From: an uncultured Chloroflexia bacterium
GTDB lineage: Bacteria > Chloroflexota > Anaerolineae > Anaerolineales > UBA4823
Direction: 5' to 3'
Assembly: GCA_963698765.1 (NCBI GenBank)
Contig: CAVOSB010000029.1
Location: 142,860 to 206,859 of the forward strand
DNA length: 64,000 bases
In this document: in pieces, positions 44,464-63,213 of the stretch
Position numbering within the stretch: the stretch's first letter is position 1
How the letters are laid out: each line of letters opens with the position of its first letter
Made by a program: the position numbers and the translations under genes
Notes under the pieces: generated by a model
Databases searched by the model: none
The model's input: only the letters and a program-made list of their open reading frames with translations
What the model was told of the DNA's origin: nothing

Positions 44464-47400
44464 ATGTTACCGATATCCAATACTGCTAACAAGACTGCCA
44501 ATAATTCTATTCAGTCACACCCTGCCGCCGCCATGGTGATCGGCGGGGGTATCGGGGGTATGCGTGCCGCTTTGGACCTCGCCGACGCGGGATTAAAAGT
44601 CTACCTGATCGAACACACTCCCTGCCTGGGTGGGCGAGTCGCCCAGCTGGGCTTTATGTTTCCCCAACACGACTGCGTGCTGTGCCGTGGAACGTCAGAT
44701 CATGGCTACGGTTGTACCCGGCCTTCGATCTCCCCCGTTTACATCCAGCATAATCAGCATCCCAATATTGAGATTTTGACTCAAACTCACCTGATTGGCG
44801 TGGAAGGACAGGCTGGAGATTTTTCGGTATCACTCCGGCAGGAACCGCGTTATGTGGATGCCTACCAATGCATCAACTGCGGCTACTGCAGCCAGGTTTG
44901 CCCGGTCGAGCTGCCCGATAAATACCAGCAAGGCATTACCTCTCGCAAAGCAGCTTACAAAGTCTCCGCTCGGGCTGTACCCGATGCTTACGTGATCGAC
45001 CGCGGCCCGTACTGTGAGAATTGCGGCAAGTGTGTCGAGGTATGCCCGACGCACGCCATCGATTTAAGCGCTCAACCGCGGCTTTTGACAGTGGAAGTTG
45101 GGGCCATCATCCTGGCTCTGGGATTTCAGATTTATGATCCGAGCCAGCTCGGTGAGCTTGGTTTTGGACGCTACCCCAATGTGGTCAGCGCCATGCAGTA
45201 TGAGCGCCTGGCAAGCCGCTCTGGTCCAACAGAAGGTATTGTGCTCAGGCCATCCGACAGGCAGAAACCGCGCTCGATCGCCTGGCTGCAGTGTATCGGT
45301 TCGCGTGATCAGGAAAACGCCTACTGCTCCTCGATCTGCTGTATGTATGGGACGAAAGAAGCTATCCTTGCGAAACAACGCCTGGGTAAAGATGTGGAAT
45401 GCCGCGTTTTTATGATGGATGAGAGGGCGTTCAATAAAGAATACAGCACCTATTTTGCCCGGGCACGCGAGAAGCATAATATCCGCTATAACCGCTGCCG
45501 GGTCTCATCCATCCGAGAAGACTCTGCACAGCCGCAACCTGATCCTGCACTATCAGGATGAGGCTGGCAATCCGGTTGAAGAAAGCTTCGATATGGTGGT
45601 CCTGGCTATCGGGGTGCGGCCTCCTGAAACTGCCGGCGAGCTCGCTAAAATGCTGGGGATACAGCTCAACGAATATGGCTTTTGCAACACCGAAAAATTC
45701 TCGCCGCTTCAGACTACCCGCCCGGGAGTATTTGTTTGCGGTGCTTTCTCCTCGCCAAAAGAAATAGTCGAAACGATCATCGACGCCAGCGGCGCTGCCG
45801 CCGAGGTCATGCGCCTCCTGAATGATCGCCTGAATACCTATCCATATACTCGGGAGTATCCGTTCCAGACCAAAGGTGCTTTGCCCGCCGAGCGAAATGT
45901 GTCGGATGAATCAGCGTGGGTGGGTGTTTTTGTTTGCACCTGCAGCGGGACACTCACGAACGACAATGCCCATCAGCCAGGCATCCTGGATGTCCATGAA
46001 ATACTCCACCTGGCGGCTGAGACCCCCGGAGTGACGCACACCCGCATCCTCGAGACAGCCTGCTTCCAGGAAGATCTCGCTACAATCCAGCGTGACATCC
46101 GCGAACAGGATCTGAACCGGGTTGTCATCGCAGCCTGCAGCAACCGCACGCATGATTCGCTCTTTCAACGCACCATCCGGCAGGCTGGGCTGAATCCTTA
46201 CCTGGTTGAGCTGGTAAACCTGCGTGAGCAGTGCAGTCGTGTTCACTACTGGCAGCGCGAGCTCGCCAATCGCAAAGCCCAGGAGTTAGTGCGCGTTGCC
46301 ATCGGGCGAGCTGGAGCTTCTCAGCCAGTCTATAAGAAGAAATTCCGCTGCTACCCGGCCGCCCTGGTGATAGGCGGAGGGGTATCGGGCATGACTGCCG
46401 CCCTGGCCATCGCCGATTCCGGCTATGAAGTTCACCTGGTTGAACGCACCGAGATGCTGGGCGGCAACCTCTCGAAACTGCATTATGTGGCAGAAGGTTA
46501 CAACCCGCAAATCTTGCTCCGTGATCTTGTAAACCGGGTGCGTGCTCACCAGCGGGTCATTGTACATACGCGCTCGGATGTCCTGCGTCATACAGGGCAT
46601 GTCGGTCGTTTTCGCACAGAGCTTATCACTCGCAATATGGATGGCTCTACTTCACGAACGCAGTTCGAACATGGCGTGACGATTGTAGCCACTGGAGGTC
46701 GGGAAGCACACGAGCACCCCTGGCTTTCTCTACCCCAGGTGATCACGCAGCACGAGCTGGAAGAGACGTATCATTCACCAGCCTGAACAGATCATCGGGC
46801 TGAAAAATGTCGTCATGATCCAGTGTGTGCGTCCTGAAGGTGTGCCGGATTACTGCTCGCGGGTGTGTTGCACGAACACCATGAAAAACGCCATCCGCAT
46901 CAAGCTCTTCAATCCGAAGTGCACTGTCACCGTGCTGTACCGCAATATCGTGACCTACGGTTTCCGCGAAGAGTATTACACCGAAGCCAGGCGCCGCGGC
47001 ATCATCTTTGCCCGATACACCGATGAAAACCCACCCACGCTTTCACTCAAGCCCGACAGCAAAGGTGTGGATGTCCTGGTCAGGGATCTCAGCCTGAACC
47101 GCGACATCAGCCTGCAGGCGGACCTGGTCACTTTAAGCATGAGCATCCTCCCAGCTGAAGGCAGTCAGGAGACCGCAGACATGCTGCGTCTGCCGCTCTC
47201 CAGCGAAGGTTTCTTCGCTGAGGCACAGCTGAAATTACGCCCGATGGACTTCATGCGTGAAGGCATCTTCCTGGCAGGCATGGCGCACTACCCCAAGTTC
47301 CTGGAGGAGAGTATCAGCCAGGCGTTAGCAGCAGCCTCCAGAGCGCTGACACTGTTGTCCTCACAGGAAGCTCTTTACCTGGGAGGGGTTGTCGCCCAGG

Positions 47401-47684
47401 TCGACCCGGATAAGTGTGTGGGTTGCCTGACCTGCACCCGTACCTGCCCATTTGAGATACCACGAGTGGTCGAAGAAAAAGGCCGGTCCGGTGTCGGCGA
47501 TCTGGGTGGAGCTGCTTTCATCGACCCGGCTCAATGCCAGGGCTGCGGGACGTGCACCGGTGAATGTCCGGCGAACGCCATCCAGCTGATCAATTACACT
47601 GACGAGCAAATTATGTTACGCAGTATTGGTGGGCTTGGTCAATGGTTGCCCGCCGTTTCACAGATTTCCGGCAGACAACTTTAA
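44464..47684 (+). CDS. hdrA: Heterodisulfide reductase subunit A-like flavo-FeS protein, copy 1 (indels near 45530, 46770)
   Basis: VIGGGIGG, CINCGYCSQVCP, QCIGSR..YCSSICC, second VIGGGVSG, LRPMDF, CVGCLTCTRTCP, CQGCGTCTGECP. Confidence 0.9.
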
Positions 47685-47705
47685 AGGATGAGGCACAGAT
47701 AAGTA

Positions 47706-48212
47706 ATGACCAACCAACCATGCACGGAAAAATTCGAGCCTGAAATCACGGCCTTTTATTGTGTCTATTGCGGCTATATGGCAGCCGATTCTGCTGGGAT
47801 GACTCATATCCAGTATCCCGCCAACGTGAAGTTCGTCCGCCTGCCCTGCACCGGGAAAACGGACATTCGTTATATCCTGGAAGCTTTTGAACAGGGGGCG
47901 GACGGCGTTTACCAGATCGCCTGCCCGATCGGCAACTGCCACCATGTGCGCGGCAATGAGCGCGGTCTGGCTCGTGTGCAGCGTGCCAAGAAAATCCTGG
48001 ATGAAATCGGCCTGGGCGGGGAGCGCCTGGAAATGTACTTTTTATCGGGCGGTCAGGGACAAACTTTTTCAATGGCTGCACATACCATGACCGAGCGCAT
48101 CCGGAAAATCGGCCCTAATCCGTTAAAGAATAAGCAAACAGCCTTTCCAGGCCGCTCCGCAAAAAATGAGCCTGAGGATGAAGACAACGGTTTCCGTGGG
48201 CGTCGCAAATAA
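47706..48212 (+). CDS. mvhD: MvhD/FlpD [2Fe-2S] subunit, Cys-type
   Basis: FYCVYCGYMAAD, RLPCTGK, GADGV..IACPIGNCHH, IGPNP. Confidence 0.9.
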   Translation: MTNQPCTEKFEPEITAFYCVYCGYMAADSAGMTHIQYPANVKFVRLPCTGKTDIRYILEAFEQGADGVYQIACPIGNCHHVRGNERGLARVQRAKKILDEIGLGGERLEMYFLSGGQGQTFSMAAHTMTERIRKIGPNPLKNKQTAFPGRSAKNEPEDEDNGFRGRRK

Positions 48213-48236
48213 TTAATCATGCACAGTTGATCATTA

Positions 48237-51200
48237 ATGAATTCCATGGAGAAAATGAGATCGATGAGTGAAGCCAGCCCAAAGAAGAACTCCAAACAAC
48301 CTGTTGGCGCAGTAATGGTCGTCGGCGGTGGTATTGCTGGAATGCAGGCCTCTCTCGACCTGGCGGACCAGGGATTTAAAGTCTTTCTGGTTGAAACTCA
48401 GTCAGCCATCGGCGGAAAAATGGCACAGCTGGACAAGACCTTTCCAACCAACGACTGCGCCATGTGTACAATCTCGCCAAAGCTGGTAGAGACAGGCCGG
48501 CACACCAATATCGAAGTGCTGACCAATGCGGAAATCACACAGCTGAAAGGCACTGCCGGAAATTTCAGCGTCCAGGTACGTCATAAACCGCGCTACATCG
48601 ATACTACGAAGTGTGTGGCTTGTGGTGATTGTACTCAGGTCTGCCCGGTTATTGTCCCGGATCGCTATAACGAAGGGCTGATCAAGCGCCGGGCAGTCTT
48701 CAAGCTCTATCCGCAGGCTGTGCCGAATGCCTTTGCAATCGATAAGCGCGGCATCGCCGCCTGCCGCGACGCCTGCCCGGCTGGTCAGCGCGCCCAGGGA
48801 TATATCGCCCTGATTCGGGAAGGTCGCTGGCATGACGCCTTGCGCGTCATCAAAATGGACAACCCCTTTCCTGGTATCTGCGGGCGCATCTGCAACCACC
48901 GCTGTGAGACGGCCTGCAACCGCGGCCTGGTCGATGAGCCGATCAACATCCGCGCCTTGAAACGCTTCGTCACCGATAAAGTCTACGCAGAACAGCGCCA
49001 GGAGGTTGAGCCTGTCGAGCCAAAGTACGCCAAAAAGGTCGCAGTCATCGGCGCGGGACCTTGCGGGCTTACTGCGGCCCAGGACCTGGTCCGGACCGGC
49101 TACCGGGTGACGGTTTTTGAAGCCATGCCCGTAGCCGGAGGCATGCTGCGCCTGGGTGTGCCGGAATACCGCCTCCCAACTGAGATCATCCAGCGAGAAG
49201 TGCAGGATATCATCGATCAGGGTGTGGATTTACGCCTCAACCATCGCGTTGACAACCTGGATGACCTGTTCAACCAGGGCTACGATGCCGTCTTGATCTC
49301 CGTCGGTGCCCACGAAGGTGTGCGGCTGCGTATCCCGGGTGCGGACCTGGAGGGTGTCCTTGTTAACACTCATTTTCTAAGGGATGTGCGCTTGGGCAAA
49401 TATAACAGCGGGAATGCCAGCGATGCTCCACCGCTTGGAAAGCGCATCCTGGTCCTCGGTGGAGGAAATGTGGCCATCGACTGTGCCCGCAGCGCAGTCC
49501 GGCTGGGCTGCGAAGTGCACATGGCCTGCCTGGAAAGCAAAGAATCAATGCCGTCTCACGCCTGGGAGGTCGAAGCTGCTGAGGCGGAAGGCGTGATTAT
49601 CCATGCCGACCGCACCTTCGAGCAGATCATAGCCGATTCCAGCGGGCATGTTGCGGGCGTGGAATGCATGCGCGTTGCTTCTTTCAATTTTGACGAAACC
49701 GGTAGGCTGAATGTCGAAAAGGTACCGGCTTCACGACACGTGATTTCCTGCGATACGGTTATCTTCTCCGTTGGGCAGCGCGCTGGCTTGGCGTTCATCC
49801 CTGACGATGCCGGGGTCGGTGTCACCCAGCGCCAGACGATCGCTATCAATCCCAACACTCTTGCAGCCACCCGCCCGGGTGTTTTCGCTGCAGGTGACAG
49901 CGTTTCGGGAACTTCCTTCGTAATTGAAGCTGTGGAAAGCGGTCACCGTGCAGCCCAATCCATAGTCCGTTATTTATGCGATGAACCGCTGGAACCGCCT
50001 GCCCGTCCGGAGCTGCCGGTGGTGCACCTGAGCCGCCAGGAAATCGACGAACAGATTGCTGCCGGTGAGATCGTTCTCCAACCTCGTGTGTCTATGCCTG
50101 AGCTGGCCGTTGGGCAGCGCATCAACAATTTTTCCGAAGTGGAGGGGGGATACGACGATGAAAGCGCCCAGGCTGAAGCTGCTCGCTGCCTGGCGTGCGG
50201 CGTGTGCTCGGAGTGTATGAGCTGCACGTTCGCCTGCGGCAGGGATGCCATCAACCACGACGATGTCGAAAGTGTCTCCAGTTATTCCGTGGGTGCATTG
50301 ATCCTGGCGCCCGGATATCAGATCTACAACGCCCACCTGTCGCAGGAATATGGACTGGGCAGGTACCCGAATGTGGTCACTGCACTTCAATACGAACGTA
50401 TGTTGTCTGCCAGCGGCCCGACCAAAGGGCACGTACGTCGTCCATCGGACGATGCGAAACCCAGGCGCATTGCCTTCCTGCAGTGCGTCGGCAGCCGCGA
50501 CCAGAATCACGACTACTGCTCCTCGGTATGCTGCATGTATGCCGCTAAAGAAGCCATCATGACCATCGAGCACGCACGCGCCGAGGCGCGCGATCACAAC
50601 GGCGATGGCAATGTGTTTTGCCAGGTATTTTTCATGGATACACGCGCCTTCAGCAAGGGCTACGAGGAGTACTACCGCCGTGCAGAGCGCAAGTACGACG
50701 TGAAATATACTCGCTGCCGGCTGAGTGATGTGCGCGAAGATCCAGATACACACAACTTGCACGTGCGCTACGCTGCTCCATATGAAGGTGAGGATGCGGT
50801 TGTCCAGGCTGAATTCGACCTGGTAGTGCTTTCGGTCGGCATGGAAATTTCCGAGCCCGTCAAAGAGCTTGGCCGGCGTCTGGGAATCCAGCTCGATCCC
50901 TACGGCTTTTGCCATACCACTCTGTTCAATCCCATGGAAACCAGCAAGGCAGGTATCTATGTGGCCGGTCCTTTCCGGGAACCCAAAGACATCCCCGAAA
51001 CGGTGATTGAAGGCAGCGCCGCTGCTTCCTGTGCGGCCCAGCTGCTGGCGCCTTCCCGCTTCAGCTTGGCTTCCAAAGAAGAATATCCCCCCGAGCGTGA
51101 CATCTCCACCGAAGCTCCGCGCGTGGGTGTATTCGTCTGCCACTGCGGCAGCAACATCGGCGGGTACCTTGATGTCCCGTCAGTTGCAGGCTATGCGCGC

Positions 51201-52872
51201 AGCTTGCCGGGTGTCGCCCACGCTGAAGATAACCTGTACACTTGTTCGCAGGACACCATTGCTCATATCATCGAACAGGTCAAAATACTGGACCTGAACC
51301 GCGTCGTCGTGGCTTCATGCACCCCTCTGACACATGAGCCGCTCTTCCAGGACGCCATTCGGCACGCTGGATTGAATCCGCACATGTTTGAGATGGCGAA
51401 CATCCGCAACCAGTGTTCCTGGGTGCATTCTGACAGCTGGGAATCTGCCACCTCCAAAGCCAAGCTGCTGACCAGGATGGCGGTCGCCCGCGCCAGTCAA
51501 TTGGAGCCGCTCAAAGTCTCCGAAGTCCCGGTTAATAACGCGGCCTTGATCATCGGAGGAGGAGCTGCAGGGATGACTGCTGCCCTGGTCCTGGCTAACC
51601 AGGGTTTCCCGGTTCACTTGGTTGAGCGTGAAGCAAAACTGGGCGGGAATCTACGTCGCCTGCACTACTTTGTTCCCGAGGTTGGGGCAAAGCAAGCTGG
51701 CTGGACACCCGCTGAGTACCTGGCCGAGACGGTATACCAGGTCAAACAGCATCCCAGGATCACGGTCTATTCGAGCTCCGAGGTAGTTAAAACTGGTGGT
51801 TTCAAGGGGAATTTCACCACAACTGTGAAATCCGAAGGCCAATCATTCCAGGTGCAGCACGGTGCGATCATCGTCGCGACCGGAGGAGTAGAATACAAAG
51901 GACATGAGTATGGATACGGAAATGATCCCCGCATCCTGACCCAGCTCGATTTCGAAGAAATGCTCGCGAAATCCTGAATCAGAGATCAAGAAACAGAAAT
52001 CTCTGGTCATGATCCAGTGTGTTGGTCCTGCCGAGAGGTTTTGCAGTCGGATCTGCTGCACCACCGCGCTTAAGAATGCTCTAAAATTCAAGGAGCTGAA
52101 TCCGGAAGGGCAGGTGACAATCCTGTACCGTGACATCCGCACCTACGGATTTAAAGAGCGGCTGTATACCGAAGCCCGCCGGCAGGGAGTGCGTTTCGTT
52201 CATTTTCAATTTGACCGAAAACCGGATGTCAGGGTCCTTGATCCCTCCTCCCCAATACGGGTCACAATCCGGGATGCCATCCTGGAGAGAGAGATTCTCT
52301 TGAATGCGGATCTCCTGGTGCTCAGCACACCGATCGTGCCGCCCCCGGGTATGCGAGAGCTTGCCAGCCGCTTGAAACTCTCCACGGATATGGACGGCTT
52401 TTTCCTGGAAGCGCACGTCAAGCTTCGACCGGTGGACTTTGCCGCGGACGGTGTGTTTATGGCTGGCCTGGCGCACTATCCCAAGTTCCTGGATGAAACC
52501 ATCGCTCAGGCTCAAGCAGCCGCCTCGCGTGCTGCCAGCATCCTGACACAAAAGACCATGCTGACTAACGCCCGGGTCGCGGTCGTCGACCCGGTTAAGT
52601 GCGTGGGTTGCCTGACCTGTGTACGGATTTGCCCCTATGAAGTGCCGCAAGTAAGCGCCAGGGCGATAGGGGTCGGAGATATCAGCGGGGCTGCTTTTAT
52701 TGAGCCGGCTACCTGCCATGGCTGCGGTAGCTGCGTTTCTGAGTGCCCCGCGCGTGCCATCCAGCTGATGCACTATACCGATGCACAAATGCTGACCAAG
52801 ATCGATGCCATGTTCGAGTTCTCCCCAATATATTCGAACTTCATCCCTGTTGAGAAACTTGAGGTTCTATGA
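48237..52872 (+). CDS. hdrA: HdrA with inserted GltD/NfnB-like pyridine-nucleotide domain (HdrL-type), copy 2 (indel near 51970)
   Basis: LDKTFPTNDCAMC, CRDACPAG, NPFPGICGRIC, IGAGPCG, GGGNVAIDCAR, EAARCLAC, QCVGSR, CHCGSNIG, NIRNQCSWVH. Confidence 0.92.
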
Positions 52873-53363
52873 TGCTCGAAGAAAATTTCGATCCCGATAT
52901 CGTCGCCTTTTGCTGTCATTACTGTGCTTACGCTGCAGCCGACCTGGCTGGCTCCATGCGGCTGGAATATCCTACGTCAATTAAAGTCATCGAGCTGCCC
53001 TGCACTGGCAAGCTGGATGTGCTCTACGTTCTGAGGGCTTTTGAGGATGGCGCCGATGGCGTGATGGTCGCAGGCTGACTGGAAGGCGACTGCCATTACC
53101 TGGAAGGTAATCTCAACGCCCGCAGAAGAGTGGAATACGTTCGTAAGTTGTTGGAACAAATCGGCCTGGAAGGCCGCCGCGTTCAGATGATCAATGTATC
53201 TGCAGCCATGGGTGGACAGTTCGCCTGGTCGGCGGCAGAGCTGACCGAAGAAATCAGGCGTATGGGTCCAAACCCTTTACGCAACTCAAACGGTAAACCG
53301 AAAGGAGAAGATCAGCCTCAAGAAACACTCACTGAACCTCGCGAGAATGGGGTCCTACCATAG
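52869..53363 (+). CDS. mvhD: MvhD/FlpD selenoprotein (in-frame UGA at 53076-53078 read as Sec)
   Basis: ORFs 52869..53078 and 53130..53363 are in frame; GADGVMVAG-U-LEGDCHY places UGA at the conserved Cys; SECIS-like hairpin follows. Confidence 0.9.
53085..53120 (+). promoter_or_regulatory. Bacterial SECIS-like element
   Basis: GGCG...ATTACC-TGGAA-GGTAAT...CGCC; upper stem starts 17 nt after the UGA. Confidence 0.75.
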
Positions 53364-53413
53364 AATCCTTTTGACCTCGAGGGAATGATCGGATTTGCAT
53401 AGAGGAGAAACGC

Positions 53414-53815: not shown

Positions 53816-55001
53816 TGTCACCATCCAGCCACTGACTATCTTTGCAGAACGCTTGAGGCGCGCCGAAGTGTTCAGCGACCTGGGTGATGCCGACCTGGTT
53901 GCGATCGCCGAATTCTGCCGCGAAGAAAATCACCGCGAGGACGATGTCATCCTGGTGGAAGACGAACCTGCACACACACTCTATATCGTGGAACGCGGTA
54001 AGCTGGCACTGGAAAAGAAGATTCAACTCGGCAGGCATTCAACAACGCGCAACGCGACCATCGGCTACGTTGGACCAGGAAAGATCGCCGGTTTTTCAAC
54101 CCTGGCCTGGCCGCAGACATACTCCACCTCTGTAATTTGCGTCGAACCTTCACGACTGATTGCCATCGATGGCCTGGCTCTGCGAGCATATCTGGACGCA
54201 CACCCCAGGGCGGGATTGCTGGTGATGAACCACCTGGCAACGCTCATTTCCGACCGCTACCGGCAGTCTATCAACACCCTCACCTACTTCCTGTCCATCG
54301 TCTCCCACGAGCTGCGCTCGCCTCTGGCAGCCATCGAAAACTACCTGCAAACACTGGATGGCGGTTATGCCGGTGACCTGACTGAAAAGCAAAAACGCAT
54401 GATCCAGCGCAGCATCCTGCGTGTCGCCGACCTGCGTATCTTGATCGGCGATGTGGTCGACCTGGCTCGCATGCGCCCCGAGCAGATCCAATCAGATTTC
54501 GAATGGTTCGATCCAGGAGAGGTCAGCGCAGAGTCTCTCGAAGACACGCGCTTGTCAGCAGCTGAGAAAGAAATTCACATCAAAATCGAGCTGCCTGCCC
54601 GCTTTGAGCCGATCGTCGGGGCGCGCCGCCGCATGCGGCAGGTGATCACCAACCTGATCAATAACGCCATGAAATTCGCACCCACCGGCAGCCAGGTTGT
54701 TTTTGGAATGAGGTACGACCCCGAAGCGCTCATCATCGAAGTCATCGACGAAGGACCGGGAATCCCAATTGACGACCTGCCCCATATTTTCACGGATTTC
54801 TTCCGCGCCAGTAATGTGGCCGACACGGTCGGACTGGGTTTAGGCTTATCGATCGCAAAGAAGATCGTCGATGCCCACGAAGGCGACATCCTGGTGAAAA
54901 ACCTGACAGACGAAAACAACAACGTGACCGGAACGGCCTTTACAGTCATCATCCCGCACGACCTTAAAACACCTGAAATGCGCAGGCGTGAATGGACATA
55001 A
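53808..55001 (+). CDS. Cytoplasmic histidine kinase with N-terminal cNMP-binding domain
   Basis: VFSDL...LYIVERGKL...GPGKIAG (cNMP fold); SHELRSPL, NLINNAMKF, DEGPGI, GLGLGLSI. Confidence 0.9.
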   Translation: MSDVTIQPLTIFAERLRRAEVFSDLGDADLVAIAEFCREENHREDDVILVEDEPAHTLYIVERGKLALEKKIQLGRHSTTRNATIGYVGPGKIAGFSTLAWPQTYSTSVICVEPSRLIAIDGLALRAYLDAHPRAGLLVMNHLATLISDRYRQSINTLTYFLSIVSHELRSPLAAIENYLQTLDGGYAGDLTEKQKRMIQRSILRVADLRILIGDVVDLARMRPEQIQSDFEWFDPGEVSAESLEDTRLSAAEKEIHIKIELPARFEPIVGARRRMRQVITNLINNAMKFAPTGSQVVFGMRYDPEALIIEVIDEGPGIPIDDLPHIFTDFFRASNVADTVGLGLGLSIAKKIVDAHEGDILVKNLTDENNNVTGTAFTVIIPHDLKTPEMRRREWT

Positions 55002-55070: not shown

Positions 55071-58000
55071 GTGAATCCCATGCAACCGAATCCGGTTGGC
55101 GCAGTAATGGTAGTAGGTGGCGGCATTGCAGGAATGCAGGCTGCGCTTGATCTGGCCGATCAGGGATTTAAAGTCTACCTCGTCGAAGAAAAATCGGCCA
55201 TCGGCGGTCATATGGCGAAGCTCGACAAGACCTTTCCTACCAATGACTGCGCCATGTGCAATATCAGCCCGAAGCTAGTCGACACCGGTCGCCACGTCAA
55301 TATCGAACTGCTAACCGACACCGATGTTGTTGAAGTGGCGGGCCAGGCGGGCAATTTCGAGGTCAAGCTGCGCCGCAGGCCGCGCTATATCGACATCTCA
55401 CGCTGTATCGGATGTGGAGATTGCGCCCAGGTCTGCCCGGTGTCGACTCCGGACCCATATGAAGAAGGCATGAAAACTCGCAAGGCTGCTTATAAATTAT
55501 ATGCCCAGGCCGTACCGGCAGCCTATGCCATCGACAAGCTCGGAATTGCGCCCTGCCGGAATGCCTGCCCGGCCGGCCAGCGCGCGCAGGGATATATTGC
55601 CTTGATCGCTCAGGGGCGGTACCGGGAGGCTTTCAGAGTAATAAAAGAGGACAACCCCTTCCCCAGCGTTTGCGGGCGCACCTGCCACCACCCGTGTGAA
55701 GGCGCCTGTACCCGTGCCCTGGTCGACCAATCCGTGGGGATCATGTCTCTCAAACGGTTTGTGGTGGACCATGCGCTGGCCTATGGCCGCGACCGGGTCC
55801 AACCGGTCCCTCGCACTCGTCCCGAATGGGTGGCAGTGATCGGATCCGGCCCTGCAGGGCTTACAGCTGCGCACGACCTGGCAAAGCAGGGTTATGGTGT
55901 AACCGTTTACGAAGCCCTGCCTGTTGCTGGAGGCATGATGCGCGTGGGCATCCCCGCCCACCGCCTTCCAAAAGGAGTCTTGCAGCAGGACATCGACGAT
56001 ATCCTGGCCCTGGGCATCATGCTGAAGACCAGTTCACCCATCAAGGATCCAGTTAAGCTTCTGGAGCAGGGCTACAATGCTGTCTGCCTGGCCACGGGGA
56101 TTTCCTCCCGCCAGCTGTCAATGGAGCTGGAAGGAGAGCAATCTGAGGGCGTCATCTCCGCTGCCACCTTCCTTCGCAAGGTAAATCTGGGAGAGCCAAT
56201 CCGCATCGGTGCCCACGTTGCGGTCCTCGGAGGCGGGATCACCGCCCTGGATTCCGCTGCCGTCGCCAGGCGCCTGGGAGCCGAAAAAGTATACCTGGTG
56301 CTGGACAGGCCGCGCGGCGAGTTGCCTGCCTATCACTGGGAAATCGCAGCGGTGGAAGCCGAAGGCATTCAGCTGCTCGAGCGCATGGTCGCCACCCGGG
56401 TGCTTTCAAGTGATGGAAAAGTTGTCGGTGTGGAGCTGGCTGAAGCCGCACAGGGTATGGTAAAGGACGAACACGGCCGGCGGCGTCCTAAGATCAAGCC
56501 TGGCACCGAGTTCACAATCGAAGTCGATACAATCATTGGCACAGTCGGCCAGTTTTCTGACCTCAATTACCTGGACCCGCATTTCGACGAGCTGAACATC
56601 GACGCCCAAACACTGGCCAGCGATATCCCGGGATTATTCGTCGTCGGCGGGAGGAAAACAGGTGCCAGCTATATCATCGAGGCAGTCGCGCTGGGACACC
56701 GTGTTGCTGCAAACATCCATCGCTTCCTGCAAGGCGAATCTCTGTCAGGTCAGGCGATTGACGCACCTCCAGCGCTGAAATTTTCACGCCAGGAAATCGA
56801 GCAGCGCGTTCTTCAGGGTCAAATCACCCTCCAGCCCCGGGTCGAGCCATCCATGCTGCACATGGAAGAGCGCGTGACCAGCTTCCGTGAGGTGGTGCTC
56901 GGTTTGACTGAACGCCAGGCTCGCCAGGAAGCACAGCGCTGCCTGCAGTGTGGGGTGTGCTCAGAGTGCCTGGCATGCGTCTATGCCTGCGGTGTAGACG
57001 CTATTGACCACAATATGGTTGAACGTGAACAACTTATCCAGGTAGGCGCGGTCATCCTGGCTCCCGGCTATCAGGCCTATAGCGCTGCCCTGGACGAAGA
57101 ATACGGCCTCGGTCGCTTCCCGAATGTGCTCACAGCCCTGCAGTTCGAGCGCCTGCTCTCGGCAGCCGGACCGACCATGGGCCACGTACTGCGCCCTTCT
57201 GATGGCAAAAAGCCTGCGCGCATCGCATTCCTGCAGTGCATCGGATCGCGCGACCAGAAGCATGATTACTGCTCAGCCGTATGCTGCATGTATGCTACCA
57301 AGGAAGCCTTGATCGCCAAGGAGCACCAGCCGGGCCTGGATGTACACGTCTTCTTAATGGACATGCGGGCTTTTTCCAAAGGTTACCTGGGCTATTTCGA
57401 GCGTGCTCGCCAGCAGTATGGCATTCAATACACCCACTGTCGCATCAGCAAGCTGATCGAGGATCCTGATACCCACGAAGTCATCCTCGATTTCCAGGAT
57501 GAAGATGGCAAGCACCAGCAATCGCGTTTCGACATGGCTGTGCTCTCGGTCGGAATGGAGATTTCTGAATTGGTCAGGCAGCTTGGACACAGGTTGGGTG
57601 TTGAATTGGATGATTACGGCTTCTGCCACACAGCCCTTTTCAACCCCTTGGAAACCAGCCGACCGGGTATCTATGCCGTAGGACCATTCCGTTCCCCCAA
57701 GGATATCCCAGAATCCGTGATCGAAGCCAGCGGCGCAGCCGCTGCTGCCGCCCGGAGGCTTAGCCCGTCCCGCTTCAGCCTGTCCGTCACGCGCACCTTC
57801 CCCACTGAACGAGAAGTGAGGGGTGAACCGGCACGCATCGGCGTGTTCGTCTGCCATTGCGGATCAAACATAGCCGGGTTCCTGGATGTGGCAGAAGTAA
57901 GCAGGCATGCCAGCCAGCTTCCGAATGTTGTCCACGCCGAGACCAACCTGTACACCTGTTCTCAGGACAGCATCCGCCATATCACCGAAGTCATCCAGGA

Positions 58001-59573
58001 ACAGAACCTCAACCGGGTGGTGGTCGCCAGCTGCAGCCCGCTGACCCACCAGTCACTCTTCCAGGACAGCCTGCGGTCGGCAGGAACTTAATCCCTACTT
58101 ATTCGAGATGGCGAATATCCGCAACCAGTGCTCCTGGGTCCACTCTCATGAGTGGGAAGTCGCCACGCAGAAAGCCCGCCAGCTGGTGAGCATGGCTGTC
58201 GCCAGAGCCAGCTTGCTCGAAGCCCAACACACGGTCGATATACCGGTGCAGCATGCCGTGCTGGTTGTCGGTGGGGGAGCAGCCGGTCTGTCAGCAGCCG
58301 TTAACCTGGCCAGCCAGGGCTTTCCTGTTCACCTGGTTGAGAAGCAGGCTGAGTTAGGTGGGAATTTACGCCAGGTTTGGCTCCCTTCTGATGGAGCCGA
58401 TCCACAAGCATTTTTGGCGCAGTTGGTTAATGAAGCTACTTCCGATGAGCGGATTTCGATTTATCTGGACAGCCAGGTGGTCGATGTGCGCGGCTTTAAA
58501 GGCAATTTCACCAGCCTGGTTCAGGATAATTCGGGTCAGCGCATCGAAATCCAGCACGGCGCCACTATCCTCGCAACGGGCGGCGAAGAATATCGCGGCC
58601 CGGATTACGGCTACGGCACTGACCCGCGACTTTAACCATGCAGCAGTTAGAAAACAAATTAGTTCATTCGAAAAATGAAATCAAGGATATCAATTCGATA
58701 GCCATGCTGCTGTGTGTCGGGCCAGCCGAGCGCTTCTGCAGCCGCATCTGCTGTACCACAGCGCTGAAGAACGCCATCGAGATCAAGCGCCAGTTCCCCA
58801 ATACCACAGTCACTATCATGTTTAGAGATATCCGTGCCTATGGATTTAAGGAGCGGCTGTATACCCAGGCTCGCCAGCTTGGTGTGCTTTTTGTGCGCTA
58901 CGATCCAGATCGGCTGCCGGAAGTGGATGCTCGCGCTGGAGAGCCGCTGAAAATCATTGTCTGGGACAGGACACTGGGAAGAAATATTGAGATCCAGCCG
59001 GGTCTTCTGGTGTTGAGCATGCCGGTTGTGCCCGGTCGGGATGTTCGCCGTTTATCCGCCATGTTCAAGGTGCCGGTCGACGGCGATGGGTTCTTCATGG
59101 AGGCGCATGTCAAACTCCGACCGGTGGATTTCAGTACAGACGGGGTTTTCATGGCGGGCATGGCTCACTACCCCAAGCTGTTGGACGAATTGATCATCCA
59201 GGCCCAGGCTGCTGCCGGGCGTGCCGCTCGTGTGCTTAGCCAGGATACCCTGGTCGGAGGAGGCAGGGTGGCTGTCGTGGAACCCGAAAAGTGTACAGGC
59301 TGCCTGACCTGCGTGCGTATTTGCCCGTTCAGCGTGCCTCAAATCCAGGTCAACCTGGCGGGGGTGGGGAAGATCATTGGTGCCGCCTATATTGAAGCAG
59401 CAATCTGTCAGGGATGCGGCTCCTGCGTGGCTGAGTGCCCGGCACGCGCCATCCAATTGATGCATTACACCGATGCCCAGATGGCGGTTAAAGTGAGCGC
59501 CCTGTTACCAATACAGACAGAGATGTCAGCCAGCCAGGAAAATGAGCGTGTCCACAATGCGGCTGGAGGATGA
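55071..59573 (+). CDS. hdrA: HdrL-type HdrA, copy 3 (indels near 58085, 58633)
   Basis: Same architecture as copy 2: NDCAMC, CRNACPAG, NPFPSVCGRTC, IGSGPAG, QCIGSR, CHCGSNI, CSRICC, LRPVDF, ferredoxin tail. Confidence 0.92.
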
Positions 59574-59577
59574 AAGA

Positions 59578-60015
59578 ATGGAACAACCGGAGCTCGAAGA
59601 GCTGCACACTTCTTATCAGGTAGTCGCATACTGCTGCGAGCACTGCGCCTATGCAGCGGCTGACCTGGCAGGTGGGCTGCGTATTCAATACCCACCAGCC
59701 ATAAAAATCGTCCAGCTCCCTTGCACAGGAAAGCTCGATGTGCTGATGGTGCTGGAGGCCATTGAGCAGGGTATCGACGGCGTGATGGTGGCAGGCTGAC
59801 TGGAAGGCGACTGCCATTACCTGGAAGGTAATGCAAACGCCCGGCGCAGGGTAGAAAGGGTTAAACAACTGCTTGGCCAGATTGGATTGGAGCCAGAGAG
59901 GGTGCGCATGTTCAACATGTCCTCCGCCATGGCAGGACAATTTGCGGAGGCTGCCAGGGAAATGAACGAACAAATTGAGAAAATTGGCAAAAATCCATTG
60001 AGGAATTATCCGTAG
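59578..60015 (+). CDS. mvhD: MvhD/FlpD selenoprotein (in-frame UGA at 59797-59799 read as Sec)
   Basis: YCCEHCAYAAAD, PCTGK, DGVMVAG-U-LEGDCHYLEGN; frame stays open to IGKNPLRNYP*. Confidence 0.9.
59806..59841 (+). promoter_or_regulatory. Bacterial SECIS-like element
   Basis: GGCG...CATTACC-TGGAA-GGTAATG...CGCC at the same offset as in the other Sec mvhD. Confidence 0.75.
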
Positions 60016-60044
60016 TGAATATCTAAAGACCGGAGGTTAACAAA

Positions 60045-60728
60045 ATGATCATCGCAGAACAAAAATCCTTAGAAGAGCTGAAGACCCTGGTTTCAGACGC
60101 CCAAAGAGTGTTGGTGGTTGGCTGCGGCACCTGTGTGACGGTGTGCTTCGCCGGCGGGGCGCGCGAGGCGGCTATCGTCTCATCTTCCCTGCGCATGGCT
60201 TCCAAGCTGGATGGAGATAAGAAGGCCATCACCGATTTCACTGTCCAGCGGCAGTGTGAGTGGGAGTATCTCGACCAGATAGCAGAACAGGTCGCGGAGG
60301 CCGATGTGGTTTTATCACTCGGATGCGGTATCGGAGTCCAGGCCATCGCAGAACATTTCCCCCAGACCTGGGTCGTCCCTGGATTAAATACCACCTTCCT
60401 GGGAATTCCCCTGGAGCAGGGTGTGTGGGCAGAGCGCTGTGCAGCCTGCGGGGACTGCGTCCTCGGACTGACCGGCGGCATCTGCCCCATCGCTCGCTGT
60501 TCAAAATCGCTGCTGAACGGCCCCTGCGGTGGTTCAGAGGACGGTCATTGTGAAATCAGTCCGGATACCGACTGCGCCTGGCAGCTGATCTATGATCGCC
60601 TGAACAGCATGGGAAAACTACACCTGCTGCAAGAAATTCAACCGCCGAAAAATTGGCGCACTTCACGTGATGGCGGGCCGCGCCGTATCGTGCGCGAGGA
60701 TTTACGGCTGGCCGCGGAGGAGGAATAA
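60045..60728 (+). CDS. metV: Methylene-THF reductase small subunit MetV
   Basis: GCGTCVTVC, RQCE, CGIGVQ, CAACGDC, GICPIARCSKSLLNGPCGG, CAW. Confidence 0.92.
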   Translation: MIIAEQKSLEELKTLVSDAQRVLVVGCGTCVTVCFAGGAREAAIVSSSLRMASKLDGDKKAITDFTVQRQCEWEYLDQIAEQVAEADVVLSLGCGIGVQAIAEHFPQTWVVPGLNTTFLGIPLEQGVWAERCAACGDCVLGLTGGICPIARCSKSLLNGPCGGSEDGHCEISPDTDCAWQLIYDRLNSMGKLHLLQEIQPPKNWRTSRDGGPRRIVREDLRLAAEEE

Positions 60729-60731
60729 ACC

Positions 60732-61764
60732 ATGACTGCACCTGTAATTGACAAGCAAACCCAGAATACAAACGGTTATCATTCCGGCTCGACGCTGGAA
60801 AAAATGCTCCGGCAGGGTCACTTTGCAGTGACCGCCGAGCTTGGCCCCCCTCAAAGCGCAGATGGGGAGGTTGTCCGCAAGAAAGCCGCCCTGCTGCGCG
60901 GTTACTGTGATGCAGTTAACATCACTGATAACCAGACTGCCATCGTCCGCATGTCCAGCATAGGGGCCGGTGCGCTCGCCATCCAGGAAGGATTGGAGCC
61001 GGTCATCCAGATGGTGTGCCGGGACCGCAACCGGCTTGCCATGCAAAGCGACCTGCTGGGGGCGTATGCTCTCGGCGCGCGCAACCTGCTGTGCCTCACC
61101 GGAGATCACCAGACTTTTGGCAACCATCCCGAATCAAAGAATGTCTTCGACCTCGATTCGATCTAAATGGTTCGCATGGTGACTGCGATGCGTGATGAGC
61201 ACACGTTTCAGTGTGGAGAAGCGATGAAAGGCCAGGAGCCGCGCTTTTTCGTCGGTGCAGCCGAGTCGCCGTTTGCCGGTCCGGTTGAATTCCGCCCGTA
61301 CCGCCTGGCTAAGAAAGTTAAGGCCGGCGCAAATTTCATTCAAACACAGCTGGTGTTCGATGTTGCCGCATTCTCCGTCTTCATGGAAAAAGTGCGCGAG
61401 CTTGGCCTGCATGAACAGGTGTATATACTGGCAGGAGTTGGCCCATTGAAAAAGCCCGGGGATGGCCAAATACATGAAAGAGCAGGTTCCCGGGATCCTG
61501 GTTCCGGATCAGCTGTTAAAACGCATGGAAGATGTGGGTCTGCCATGGGCTGGCAAAAAAGGCGAAGAGCTGACCAAGGAAGACAAGAAGGCGCGTTCAG
61601 AAGCCTATAAGCAGGAAGGTATCCAGATTTGTATCGAGTTAATCCAGCAGCTGCGACAGATCAAAGGGGTTGCCGGCGTTCACATCATGGCGATCGAATG
61701 GGAAGAGGCTGTAAAGACGATCGTCGAGGGTGCCGGTCTCTACCCGCGCCCGCAGGTAGATTAG
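60732..61764 (+). CDS. metF: Methylenetetrahydrofolate reductase MetF (in-frame TAA at 61164 and indel near 61455)
   Basis: VTAELGPP, NITDN, CRDRNRLAMQS, CLTGDH, KKVKAGANFIQTQ, GVHIM. Confidence 0.88.
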
Positions 61765-61792
61765 TCGATATCGCACCCTCCAGGAGGCTTAG

Positions 61793-63213
61793 ATGACAGA
61801 AGAAAAGATTGTAGAAAGCCAGCCCATCACTATCAATCCCGCCCTGGCGCAGCGCATCCAGGACGAGCTCGGGCAGAATGTCTACCTGTGTTACCAGTGC
61901 ATTAAATGCTCCTCAGGCTGCCCGATGGTTGAGTTTTTCGACTGGCAGCCCAACCAGATCATGCGAGCACTTCAGCTTGGACAGGAAGATATTGCTCTTA
62001 AATCTCAGACGCCCTGGCTGTGCGCTTCCTGCCAGACCTGCACGACACGCTGCCCGCAGGGACTGGATATTAACGGCATCATGGATTTTCTGACGCGGGA
62101 AGCTCTCGATCGTGGTTTCACCGCTCCTGTCTCCGAAGTGAAAATCTTCAACGAAGCCTTTATGCGCGAGATTCGCCTTTGGGGACGTGCTTATGAGCTC
62201 GGCCTGATGGCTGAAATGAAACTTCGTACGCACAACATTATGGGTGATATGGATTTGGGCATGAAGATGCTGGCGAAGAACAAATTTCCCTTCTTACCAT
62301 CACTAGGTCACCCACCGCGCAAAGTTAAGGCCATCCCGGGTGCAGATGATGCAATTGCTTACTATCCGGGATGCTCATTGGACTAACCTCACCGGAATTC
62401 AATACCTCTGTCAAAGCGGTATGCGAAGCCTTAGGTCTTAAGCTGATTGAACCCACCGGTTGGATGTGCTGCGGCAGCAGCTCCGCCCATCGCTCCGATC
62501 CAGAAGCTGCACTTCGTTTGCCTATGGAAAACCTTGCCTTGATTGAGCAGAATGGTTTTCATGAAGTAACCATGCCTTGCGCAGCATGCTTTAACCGCCA
62601 TAAAGCCGCCCAATTCGAAATCCGCCACCACGATCAGCGCCGCCGGGAAGTCGAGAAAACTATCGGCTATGCCTACCAGGACAGTGTTCAGGTAAATACG
62701 CTGGTTCAGTCTATGCTCCAGCATCTGGGAGCAGAAAAAATCGCCTCCAGAGTCAAGAAACCCCTGGCAGGATTGCGCGTGGTCAGCTATTACGGATGCC
62801 TGCTTACGCGCCCACCGCAGATCACCGAAGCTGAGCATCCGGAGAATCCCACCGATATGGACGAGCTGCTCACGGCTCTCGGAGCGGAAGTGCGGGATTG
62901 GTCTTATAAAACGGTCTGCTGCGGAGCAGCCAATTCGCTGACCCGCCCGGATATCGTGCTGAAGCTGAGCGGAGCCCTGGTACAACATGCACGTGAATCT
63001 GGGGCTGATGTGATCGCGGTCGCCTGCCCTCTCTGCCATGTCAACCTGGATGCCCGGCAATTCCAGATGGGCCTCGAACAAGCCATGCCGGTCATGTTCT
63101 TCACTCAATTAATGGCAATCGCACTGGGACTGCCGGATAAAGCCGCCAGCCTGAACAAGAATCTGGTCGATCCGCGACCGCTGCTGCGGTCGAAGGAGCT
63201 GCTGGCAGCCTGA
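61793..63213 (+). CDS. Probable HdrC-HdrB fusion (indel near 62382)
   Basis: CYQCIKCSSGCP, CASCQTCTTRCP (HdrC); YYPGCSL, WMCCG, PCAAC, YYGCLL, CCG, ACPLC (HdrB CCG domains). Confidence 0.82.

What the first reader, a model, noticed from the sequence alone, without database searches (positions are those of the whole stretch)
44464..63213. Triplicated HdrA-MvhD modules feeding one MetVF-HdrCB
The hdrCBA-mvhD-metVF cluster of Moorella thermoacetica is a proposed electron-bifurcating methylene-THF reductase with a single HdrA-MvhD. Here three different HdrA-MvhD pairs (one lacking and two carrying a GltD-like NAD(P)H domain) precede metV, metF and hdrCB in one 19-kb strand-coherent cluster. Inference: interchangeable electron-input modules or a larger multi-flavin complex.
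Basis: partly seen in the sequence, partly recalled or inferred. Interest (0 to 1): 0.75.

Follow-up and report, generated by a model that had tools for sequence, protein, structure and literature searches.

The report
Three-module Hdr-type methylene-folate reductase operon
An uncultured Anaerolineae bacterium has a real, conserved operon that encodes one folate-reducing enzyme core with three different electron-handling modules, a multi-module version of an acetogen enzyme whose mechanism is still unsolved.

Summary
Window 44464-63213 (+) is one tightly packed cluster of 11 genes: three pairs of a fused double HdrA and MvhD, then metV, metF and a fused hdrCB. The first HdrA lacks the NfnB/GltD-like NAD(P)H module and the other two carry it. 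A response regulator and a histidine kinase lie before the third pair.

All seven frame breaks (hdrA1-3, metF, hdrCB) are 1-base assembly errors. Short-read contigs differ from the window at exactly those places, and relatives have single open frames. The TAA in metF is probably an error too, but this is not proven. The TGAs in mvhD2 and mvhD3 are selenocysteine codons.

The three-module form recurs in three other genomes. A two-module form (plain plus GltD-type) is the norm in 13 of 28 related loci.

This is a type IV (Moorella/Sporomusa-type) methylene-THF reductase. Its parts are all known, and the basic cluster was reported in marine Anaerolineae in 2017. The multi-module layout is not discussed in the text I could search.

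Whether the modules work in parallel or as one complex remains open. Earlier notes of this scan describe other HdrA/MvhD-MetFV variants on other DNA.

The parts
44464..47684 (+). hdrA1: fused double HdrA without a GltD module (module 1). It reads as three ORF pieces because of two 1-base assembly errors near 45525 and 46765.
   Evidence: Pfam. It is 68-81% identical to the 1075-aa intact G010 orthologue. Unit 1 corresponds to HdrA residues 144-510 and includes the inserted ferredoxin domain and the C194/C197 motif. Unit 2 has the N-terminal domain and the C-terminal ferredoxin domain. Indels in X1 contigs lie at 45525 and 46765.
47706..48212 (+). mvhD1 (Cys form)
   Evidence: PF02662, E 7e-40. 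Cys73 aligns with the Sec position of MvhD2 and MvhD3.
48237..52872 (+). hdrA2: fused double HdrA with an NfnB/GltD-like insertion (module 2). One assembly error lies near 51969.
   Evidence: It is 72-79% identical to the G010 1536-aa orthologue. The X1 contig has an indel at 51969.
52869..53363 (+). mvhD2, a selenoprotein (TGA at 53076-53078) with a hairpin downstream.
53414..53815 (+). Response regulator with a receiver domain only.
   Evidence: PF00072, E 1e-21. It is 77% identical to the G010 orthologue at the same place in the cluster.
53808..55001 (+). Soluble histidine kinase with a cNMP-binding-like sensor domain.
   Evidence: PF00027, PF00512 and PF02518.
55071..59573 (+). hdrA3: second GltD-carrying double HdrA (module 3). 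Two assembly errors lie near 58085 and 58628.
   Evidence: It is 61-75% identical to G010 M3. X1 and X6 contigs have indels at these places.
59557..60015 (+). mvhD3, a selenoprotein (TGA at 59797-59799). The start is uncertain (ATG at 59542, 59557 or 59578).
60045..60728 (+). metV
   Evidence: PF12225, E 1.6e-38. It is 84% identical to G010 MetV.
60732..61764 (+). metF. It has an in-frame TAA at 61164-61166 (probably an error, unresolved) and a 1-base assembly error near 61448.
61793..63213 (+). Fused hdrCB. One assembly error lies near 62384.
   Evidence: Both CxxCxxCxxxC motifs and both CCG motifs are complete in G010. In the window's two pieces the HdrC motifs, the second CCG motif and all cysteines of the first CCG motif are present, although that first motif is split by the frame error.
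63281..63889 (+). Conserved ORF of unknown function directly after hdrCB. It may belong to the operon.
   Evidence: Homologues (33-42% identity) lie directly after hdrCB in 6 other genomes' loci. There is no Pfam or NCBIfam hit and no lead from the Atlas.

Best explanation
This is the operon of a type IV (Hdr-type) methylene-tetrahydrofolate reductase of an uncultured Anaerolineae bacterium that has the Wood-Ljungdahl pathway.

The catalytic core is MetV-MetF. It is encoded once, together with one fused HdrCB that keeps both non-cubane-cluster CCG motifs.

Three paralogous electron-transfer modules are encoded in front of the core. Each is a fused double HdrA (a pseudo-dimer carrying two HdrA-type flavins) plus its own MvhD [2Fe-2S] adaptor. 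Module 1 keeps an intact inserted ferredoxin domain, which is the ferredoxin site of methanogen HdrA. In modules 2 and 3 that domain is split by a complete NfnB/GltD-like NAD(P)H-FAD-2[4Fe-4S] unit, and their MvhD uses selenocysteine.

Shown here: the gene content, its conservation, the Sec codons, and that the apparent gene breaks are assembly errors.

Inferred: the genes are co-transcribed and the proteins associate as in Moorella and Sporomusa.

Inferred, at about 40% on its own: the modules are co-expressed, self-contained units that dock in parallel onto the shared MetVF-HdrCB core. Methylene-/methyl-THF would then be coupled to NAD(P)H through modules 2 and 3, and to ferredoxin or another low-potential carrier through module 1, by flavin-based bifurcation or confurcation. 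Module 3 is a later duplicate that arrived together with the two-component pair.
For: Identity of the parts:
- Pfam and PDB matches.
- All HdrC and HdrB cluster cysteines are present.
- The K409-type lysine is present in both HdrA units, and the E356-type glutamate in unit 1 (alignments). This signature is quoted from PMC9430772.

The genes are intact:
- All 7 mapped frameshifts coincide with 1-base indels in short-read contigs. One further indel lies upstream, at 44434.
- Relatives have open frames of 1531-1564 aa.
- G010 has all 11 genes intact.

Selenocysteine:
- The TGA aligns with Cys73 of MvhD1.
- The TGA is kept in G010 and in 25 of 27 distinct MvhD2/3-type sequences, most with the same predicted downstream hairpin.
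- Collinear selB pieces lie on contig C37.

One operon:
- All gaps are 69 nt or less, and three gene pairs overlap.
- No terminator-like site on the + strand falls in a gap.

Modularity, from the 28 loci with an orthologous metV:
- 4 have plain + GltD + RR/HK + GltD (window, G010, G014, L080).
- 13 have plain + GltD.
- 2 have GltD + RR/HK + GltD.
- 1 (L058) has a single GltD module with 2.7 kb of upstream sequence in view, and 1 (L055) has a different third module.
- 7 are cut by contig ends.

Other points:
- Single GltD-type module + metVF clusters occur in other phyla.
- The third-position modules form one clade, and L066 shows an independent duplication (FastTree).
- The cofactor cysteines are invariant across M2- and M3-type proteins.
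- Wood-Ljungdahl context: acsB, acsCD, fhs and a second metVF next to the acs genes.
- Literature: in the passages read, Moorella HdrA is a 1487-aa GltD-carrying double HdrA and Sporomusa HdrA has 942 aa without GltD. Pull-downs link MetVF with Hdr and MvhD (PMC9430772).
Against: - There is no transcript or protein evidence. No RNA run holds the stretch.
- Binding of any module to MetVF-HdrCB is not shown. In S. ovata the Hdr/MvhD proteins did not co-purify tightly with MetVF (PMC9430772).
- GltD-type HdrA-MvhD pairs also occur without metVF. They lie next to their own hdrCB (G002:C12, G001:C10, L086, L093, L096, L100) or next to a [NiFe] hydrogenase (L078). Adjacency alone does not prove that they serve MetVF.
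- The strict plain-then-GltD gene order and the single hdrCB fit an obligate multi-subunit complex just as well as parallel docking.
- The TAA at 61164 is unresolved for this organism. The X1 contig spans the site, but its 4 differing letters were not listed.
- The tree was made with FastTree only, and several rows have an unusual amino-acid composition.
Confidence: 0.6

Rival explanations
1. One asymmetric super-complex. The plain module, the GltD module(s), MetVF and HdrCB assemble together, and each part supplies a different arm. NAD(P)H would enter at the NfnB-like flavin, methylene-THF would be reduced at MetF, ferredoxin would be reduced at the intact inserted ferredoxin domain of module 1, and HdrCB would wire the arms together or reduce a thiol.
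For: The plain-then-GltD order is kept in the 17 loci that show both modules in full (13 two-module loci plus 4 three-module loci). The genes are tightly packed or overlap. There is only one hdrCB and one metVF for 2-3 HdrA genes. The domain content is complementary: the ferredoxin domain is intact only in module 1.
Against: Each double HdrA is already a complete pseudo-dimer with its own MvhD and its own C-terminal ferredoxin domain. Single-module clusters exist in other phyla and, per the literature, in Moorella and Sporomusa. L065 has two GltD modules and no plain module within 6.3 kb upstream. The number of modules varies between close relatives.
Confidence: 0.25
2. Some modules do not serve MetVF at all. 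They would be independent HdrA(GltD)-MvhD(-HdrCB) oxidoreductases, for example NAD(P)H:ferredoxin or thiol-linked enzymes, that merely share an operon and regulation with metVF.
For: Homologous GltD-type HdrA-MvhD pairs stand with hdrCB but without metVF in G002:C12, G001:C10, L086, L093, L096 and L100. One stands behind [NiFe] hydrogenase genes in L078.
Against: Within the clade that holds the window's genes, every complete locus keeps the modules directly upstream of metV. These proteins form their own clade, apart from most of the metVF-less paralogues, although L070 and L093 branch beside it. The S. ovata pull-downs link HdrA, HdrB and MvhD with MetF.
Confidence: 0.1
3. The cluster is an artefact or is decaying: a chimeric assembly of paralogues, or a set of pseudogenes with metF inactivated.
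For: The window shows 7 frameshifts and one in-frame TAA. The same window also has rpoB in three pieces.
Against: The same three-module order occurs in G010, G014 and L080, and also in G007 across two contigs. Short-read contigs bridge the M1/M2 and HK/M3 junctions and carry the corrected length at all 7 frameshift sites. The paralogues are only 39-56% identical, so they would not be collapsed or joined in error. At the TAA codon, 15 of 15 metagenome homologues have CAA or CAG, including one that is 96.3% identical over 834 nt.
Confidence: 0.05

Closest known systems
Type IV (Hdr-type) methylene-THF reductase MetFV-HdrCBA-MvhD of Moorella thermoacetica (Mock et al. 2014, as described in passages of PMC9430772 and PMC13391211)
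   Same: It has metV, metF, hdrC, hdrB and mvhD, plus a roughly 1500-aa HdrA built from two TrxR-like units. The first unit is interrupted by a GltD-type FAD/NAD(P)H/[4Fe-4S] domain and the second lacks the inserted ferredoxin domain. It also sits in a Wood-Ljungdahl background.
   Different: The window has three HdrA-MvhD pairs instead of one, including a GltD-less one. hdrC and hdrB are fused and lie after metF. Two of the MvhD proteins are selenoproteins. A response regulator and a histidine kinase lie inside the cluster. A second metVF lies elsewhere in the genome.
HdrCBA-MvhD-MetVF of Sporomusa ovata (PMC9430772)
   Same: Its double HdrA has no GltD domain, as in module 1. Interaction of Hdr and MvhD with MetVF was shown by pull-down.
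   Different: S. ovata HdrA has 942 aa and only a bare extra TrxR-like unit. Module 1 has about 1075 aa and keeps a complete inserted ferredoxin domain in its first unit.
hdrABC-mvhD-metVF cluster of marine Anaerolineae single cells and MAGs (DscP3, An-B22, SM23_63; Sewell et al. 2017, PMC5736913, passages read)
   Same: It comes from the same bacterial class. It has a fused hdrCB, two-component genes beside metF and a second, different metVF pair, and is Moorella-like.
   Different: The text read treats it as one hdrA-mvhD set and states that no Nfn was found. It does not mention several HdrA-MvhD modules, the NfnB-like insertion or Sec in MvhD. I could not see its Figure 2 or its supplements, which may show more.
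HdrL-MvhD of Desulfobacterium autotrophicum (PMC2702500), and the NfnB-inserted and fused double HdrAs of ANME archaea (PMC9012536)
   Same: These are large HdrAs with an NAD(P)H-binding insertion, each followed by mvhD. Sec forms of MvhD occur. The fused double HdrAs have complementary N-terminal-domain and Cys197 content.
   Different: In the passages read they are not reported next to metVF in multiple copies. The order of the complementary units in this window (Cys197 unit first, N-domain unit second) is the reverse of the wording in PMC9012536.
HdrABC-MvhAGD of Methanothermococcus thermolithotrophicus (PDB 5ODC; the organism name is recalled, not taken from the call)
   Same: It shares the HdrA fold, MvhD, and the HdrB and HdrC cluster motifs. 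E-values range from 1e-36 to 1e-186.
   Different: The window has no hydrogenase genes here and no CoM/CoB context. Its HdrA domains are spread over two fused units.

Membership tests
Type IV (Hdr-type) MTHFR gene cluster (MetFV-HdrCBA-MvhD) | metV (PF12225) directly followed by metF (PF02219) | tested here: met
   The gap between them is 3 nt. They are 84% and 78-80% identical to the intact G010 genes.
Type IV (Hdr-type) MTHFR gene cluster (MetFV-HdrCBA-MvhD) | hdrC- and hdrB-like genes in the same cluster, with two CxxCxxCxxxC motifs and two CCG motifs | tested here: met
   All 18 motif cysteines are present in G010, and they are also present in the window's two pieces.
Type IV (Hdr-type) MTHFR gene cluster (MetFV-HdrCBA-MvhD) | An HdrA made of two TrxR-like units, the second lacking the inserted ferredoxin domain, with a GltD insertion in the Moorella form (definition from PMC9430772) | tested here: met
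   Alignments to 5ODC_A and 5jca_L. The feature is met three times over. Module 1 lacks GltD.
Type IV (Hdr-type) MTHFR gene cluster (MetFV-HdrCBA-MvhD) | mvhD next to hdrA | tested here: met
   Three FlpD hits lie in the cluster, each directly after an hdrA.
Type IV (Hdr-type) MTHFR gene cluster (MetFV-HdrCBA-MvhD) | An intact metF reading frame | tested here: inconclusive
   The frameshift is an assembly error. The TAA at 61164 is not resolved for this organism. At that codon, 15 of 15 homologues have Gln codons, including one that is 96.3% identical.
Type IV (Hdr-type) MTHFR gene cluster (MetFV-HdrCBA-MvhD) | Physical association of the six proteins and NADH-linked methylene-THF reduction | not testable with these tools
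   This needs protein work.
Selenoprotein form of MvhD | An in-frame TGA aligned with a cluster-ligand Cys of a Cys paralogue and conserved in orthologues | tested here: met
   The TGA aligns with Cys73 of MvhD1. G010 has TGA at both places. Of 27 distinct sequences of this type, 25 have TGA.
Selenoprotein form of MvhD | A SECIS-like hairpin shortly after the TGA | tested here: met
   A 7-bp AUUACCU/AGGUAAU stem starts 19 nt after the UGA in both genes. The z-scores are only -1.4 and -1.9, against 0.12 at the Cys paralogue. The hairpin recurs in most of the 25 sequences, with changes in the lower stem.
Selenoprotein form of MvhD | Sec-decoding machinery (selB) in the genome | tested here: met
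   Four collinear pieces on C37:312484-314411 cover selB model positions 2-48, 50-148, 200-353 and 430-580. Each piece alone is below the full-length cut-off, because the gene is split by frame errors.
Canonical bifurcating HdrA of methanogens (PDB 5ODC chain A) | The N-terminal cluster domain, the TrxR-FAD domain, the inserted ferredoxin domain and the C-terminal ferredoxin domain together in one HdrA unit that homodimerises | tested here: not met
   The domains are divided between two fused units. Unit 1 has the TrxR domain, the inserted ferredoxin domain and C194/C197. Unit 2 has the N-domain, the TrxR domain and the C-terminal ferredoxin domain. It works like an HdrA pseudo-dimer and is not a canonical HdrA.
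Canonical bifurcating HdrA of methanogens (PDB 5ODC chain A) | The E356/K409 signature of bifurcating HdrA (as quoted in PMC9430772) | tested here: met
   Unit 1 of M1 and M2 has both residues (YER..., CCMYA.K). Unit 2 has the Lys. The Glu of unit 2 was not covered by an alignment.
NfnAB transhydrogenase | A complete NfnB/GltD-type subunit (2[4Fe-4S], FAD, NADPH site) | tested here: met
   The insertion aligns with 5jca_L residues 50-473 of 474 (E 1.5e-76; 6.8e-81).
NfnAB transhydrogenase | A partner PyrK-like small subunit with [2Fe-2S] and a second FAD | tested here: not met
   No such domain occurs in any of the cluster's ORFs. This is an Nfn-like domain, not an Nfn.

The most novel reading that the evidence does not exclude
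The plain module and the GltD modules assemble with MetVF-HdrCB into one asymmetric machine. NAD(P)H oxidised at the NfnB-like flavin would be bifurcated to methylene-THF and, through the intact ferredoxin domain of module 1, to ferredoxin. The Anaerolineae operon would then spell out, as a separate gene, the 'missing second acceptor arm' that has kept type IV MTHFR unexplained since 2014. The receiver/kinase pair would switch in a third, selenium-dependent module.
Probability: 0.15. Interest if true: 0.8.

Novelty: new variant of a known kind. Interest (0 to 1): 0.45.

Why it matters
Type IV methylene-THF reductase is the least understood step in the energy budget of acetogens. A 2026 paper still calls its second electron carrier unknown (PMC13391211, passage read).

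This lineage encodes the enzyme core once but gives it two or three different HdrA-MvhD modules with complementary domain content. That offers a natural dissection of which module handles which redox partner. Each module could be expressed with MetVF-HdrCB and assayed with NADH, NADPH and ferredoxin.

The finding also matters for annotation. Public gene calls will truncate the Sec-containing MvhD genes and, in error-prone long-read MAGs like this one, will report broken hdrA and metF genes where none exist.

It also bears on how abundant sediment Anaerolineae are modelled as acetogens or acetate oxidisers.

Tried and rejected
- RNA evidence: no RNA holder was listed for the stretch, so expression was not tested.
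- Raw Illumina runs X21 and X23: 0 reads were laid, with about 12% of each run read. This is no test either way.
- Exact 28-base search of metagenome contigs beside the TAA: 0 matches. A degenerate codon pattern then gave 15 loci.
- Promoter and terminator scan: the counts were at chance level (9 found against 11.0 +/- 3.4 expected; 23 against 18.1 +/- 4.5). I used it only to note that no + strand terminator-like site lies in an intergenic gap. One search failed on the size limit and was re-sent.
- Atlas search for the downstream ORF: the best score was 0.85 with unrelated eukaryotic clusters, which is no lead.
- Chimeric assembly and pseudogene readings: rejected (see rival 4).
- Joints in table 5 (50539>57300 and 51352>58110, skipping about 6.76 kb) have sides of only 27 and 20 bases. 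I did not count them as evidence for two-module strains.
- Not run: complex prediction and structure prediction. HdrA-MvhD and HdrA-HdrC would pass by likeness to solved Hdr structures. The double HdrAs exceed the size limit. A pass would not separate the parallel-docking model from the super-complex model.
- Not run: the search for homologous proteins and the search of protein representatives. Relatives with genomic context were already in hand.
- Not seen: Figure 2 and the supplements of PMC5736913, and the Appel et al. 2021 review on HdrA modules (known to me only from reference lists). Either may already depict multi-module clusters.
- Searches behind the statement that the multi-module layout is not discussed in print.

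Full report
**What is in the window**

ORF listing and Pfam scans show a run of redox genes on the + strand between 44464 and 63213. Read at face value it is 17 ORF pieces.

I compared it with the same cluster in a cleaner relative of the same family. That relative is G010, on contig C10, loci L009/L010. The comparison shows 11 genes:

- hdrA1 (1075 aa in G010) and mvhD1
- hdrA2 (1536 aa) and mvhD2
- a receiver-only response regulator and a cNMP-domain histidine kinase
- hdrA3 (1504 aa) and mvhD3
- metV, metF (344 aa) and a fused hdrCB (474 aa)

Window proteins are 61-84% identical to their G010 counterparts. The three modules are only 39-56% identical to one another. They are therefore old paralogues, not repeats that an assembler could confuse.

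**The broken genes are assembly errors**

The window is full of frame errors in essential genes:

- rpoB is in three ORFs.
- An S5-L30 fusion ORF appears.
- A penicillin-binding protein and a GH10 esterase are each split.

Aligning the G010 proteins to the window places seven frameshifts near 45525, 46765, 51969, 58086, 58630, 61450 and 62384, plus a CAA>TAA change at 61164. I then laid public runs on 44400-63300.

Short-read contigs of run X1 differ from the window by a single inserted or deleted base at 45525, 46765, 51969, 58085, 58628, 61448 and 62384. They also differ at 44434, upstream of the first gene. The contigs fall in the 99+, 95-99 and 90-95% likeness classes, and the long listed pieces carry 0-18 differing letters each. 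Run X6, from another study, shows three of the same indels.

All 7 frameshifts therefore coincide with an independent indel difference. X1 contigs also bridge the M1/M2 junction (47465-49210) and the kinase/hdrA3 junction (54068-55700).

The raw Illumina runs X21 and X23 laid no reads, so they test nothing.

The TAA in metF was not settled, because the table of substitutions was truncated. At that codon, 15 of 15 metagenome homologues carry CAA or CAG. One of them is 96.3% identical to the window over 834 nt and reads ATT CAA where the window reads ATC TAA, a TC/CT swap. I consider the TAA probably an error but do not claim it.

**Selenocysteine**

mvhD2 and mvhD3 each contain an in-frame TGA (VAG-TGA-LEGDCHY). 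The evidence that it encodes selenocysteine is as follows.

- The TGA aligns with Cys73 of MvhD1.
- It is present at both places in G010.
- It is present in 25 of 27 distinct sequences of this type among the loci fetched.
- A stem AUUACCU/AGGUAAU starts 19 nt downstream in both genes. Its z-scores are modest (-1.4 and -1.9), against 0.12 for the Cys paralogue.
- The stem recurs in most of the 25 sequences.
- Collinear selB pieces lie on contig C37.

**Anatomy of the HdrAs**

I used alignments to PDB 5ODC chain A.

- Unit 1 corresponds to HdrA residues 144 to about 510. It has the FAD domain, the C194/C197 motif and the inserted ferredoxin domain. It has no N-terminal cluster domain.
- Unit 2 starts with the N-terminal cluster domain (HdrA residues 2-135). 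It lacks the C194/C197 motif (consensus) and the inserted ferredoxin domain. It ends with the C-terminal ferredoxin domain.

This is the complementary pseudo-dimer described for fused HdrAs in PMC9012536.

In hdrA2 and hdrA3 a complete NfnB/GltD-like unit sits between the two cluster motifs of the inserted ferredoxin domain. It matches 5jca_L residues 50-473 with E 1e-76 to 1e-81. PMC9430772 describes the 1487-aa HdrA of Moorella thermoacetica in the same terms, whereas Sporomusa ovata HdrA (942 aa) has no GltD.

Cofactor cysteines are invariant across ten M2/M3-type proteins. HdrCB keeps both HdrC cluster motifs and both CCG motifs.

**Genomic and taxonomic context**

- The closest named relatives of hdrA2 are Anaerolineae and Anaerolineales MAGs, up to 82% identical. 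This agrees with earlier notes on this genome.
- The genome encodes acsB, acsC/D and fhs.
- It has a second metV-metF next to the acs genes.
- It has a homocysteine-methyltransferase-MTHFR fusion.
- It has one further mvhD on contig C5.

This matches what Sewell et al. 2017 (PMC5736913) report for marine Anaerolineae: an hdrABC-mvhD-metVF cluster with fused hdrCB, two-component genes, and a second metVF. The text I read does not mention several HdrA-MvhD pairs, and it states that no Nfn was found. I could not see its Figure 2.

**Distribution**

GltD-type double HdrAs are widespread.

Among 28 loci with an orthologous metV (at least 60% identity, window included), the arrangements were:

| Arrangement | Loci |
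|---|---|
| plain + GltD + RR/HK + GltD | 4 (window, G010, G014, L080) |
| plain + GltD | 13 |
| at least two modules, first cut by a contig end | 4 |
| GltD + RR/HK + GltD | 2 (L065, with no plain module in 6.3 kb upstream; L066, cut) |
| a different extra module | 1 (L055) |
| a single module with 2.7 kb of upstream sequence in view | 1 (L058) |
| one module, then a contig end | 3 |

- G007 shows the three-module order across two contigs.
- In other phyla a single GltD-type module precedes metVF (for example L063, L087, L114). Elsewhere the module stands with its own hdrCB and no metVF.
- In one Acidobacteriota locus that I looked at, the module follows [NiFe] hydrogenase genes.
- A FastTree of 55 GltD-type proteins puts the third-position modules of G010, G005, L065 and G014 in one clade (support 94-100). 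It also shows the two modules of L066 as each other's nearest relatives, which points to an independent duplication.

**How it probably works**

The safest statement is that this is a type IV methylene-THF reductase operon with extra HdrA-MvhD modules.

The gaps between genes are at most 69 nt, three gene pairs overlap, and no + strand terminator-like site falls in a gap. Co-transcription is therefore likely but not shown.

Each double HdrA has one MvhD gene, one C-terminal ferredoxin domain (the HdrC contact in 5ODC, from recall) and one Cys197/N-domain pair. It looks self-contained.

Three observations lead me to favour co-expressed modules that share the MetVF-HdrCB core:

- The number of modules varies among relatives.
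- Duplication has recurred.
- Single-module clusters exist elsewhere.

In this model modules 2 and 3 link to NAD(P)H. Module 1, with its intact ferredoxin domain, links to ferredoxin or another low-potential carrier. I put this at about 40%.

The fixed plain-then-GltD order and the single hdrCB fit a single super-complex nearly as well (about 25%).

The second electron carrier of type IV MTHFR is still unknown (PMC13391211), so either outcome would be informative.

**Verdict**

All parts belong to known families, and the basic cluster in Anaerolineae is in print. The conserved two- and three-module layout, the NfnB-like insertion in this lineage and the Sec-MvhD genes are not discussed in the texts found. 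I rate it a new variant of a known kind, of moderate interest.

Noticed in passing
window 122-847, 13798-17521, 31526-34467, 42467-44055: Essential and ordinary genes are split or fused by frame errors. rpoB is in three ORFs, an S5-L30 fusion ORF appears, and a penicillin-binding protein and a GH10/feruloyl-esterase-like gene are each in two pieces. The whole assembly seems to carry about one indel every 2-3 kb.
   Followed up: partly
window 63281-63889: A 202-aa ORF with four C-terminal cysteines lies 67 nt after hdrCB. It has homologues (33-42% identity) at the same position in 6 other genomes' loci (G002, L051, L052, L053, L060, L067). It has no Pfam or NCBIfam family and gave no Atlas lead. 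It may be an unrecognised member of the operon.
   Followed up: partly
G000:C26:64425-65480 and C26:68970-73269; G000:C27:52237-53106: A second, divergent metV-metF pair lies beside the acsCD/acsB genes. A third MTHFR domain is fused to a homocysteine S-methyltransferase (620-aa ORF). The genome therefore has three different methylene-THF reductases.
   Followed up: partly
G000:C37:312484-314411: selB is present but cut into four collinear pieces, presumably by the same kind of assembly error.
   Followed up: no
L066 (about 295-10950) and L065: In L066 the two GltD-type HdrAs on either side of the response-regulator genes are each other's closest relatives, which points to an independent duplication. 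L065 has two GltD modules and no plain module within 6.3 kb upstream.
   Followed up: partly
L055 (first 8 kb): A further, more distant HdrA-like gene and an mvhD lie upstream of the usual plain + GltD pair. This is a different kind of third module.
   Followed up: no
L078 5629-14464: In an Acidobacteriota MAG the GltD-type double HdrA and its mvhD follow the genes for the [NiFe] hydrogenase small and large subunits and a maturation protease. The same module therefore seems to be plugged into a hydrogenase there.
   Followed up: partly
window 50539>57300 and 51352>58110 (table 5): Contigs of run X1 jump about 6.76 kb between equivalent places of hdrA2 and hdrA3. Their short sides are only 27 and 20 bases. 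They could come from strains with a hybrid two-module cluster, or they could be paralogue mis-joins.
   Followed up: no
window 44381-44407: A strong 11-bp GC-rich hairpin lies in the 400-nt gap before hdrA1. The best promoter-like site of the region is at 44134-44163 (+).
   Followed up: no
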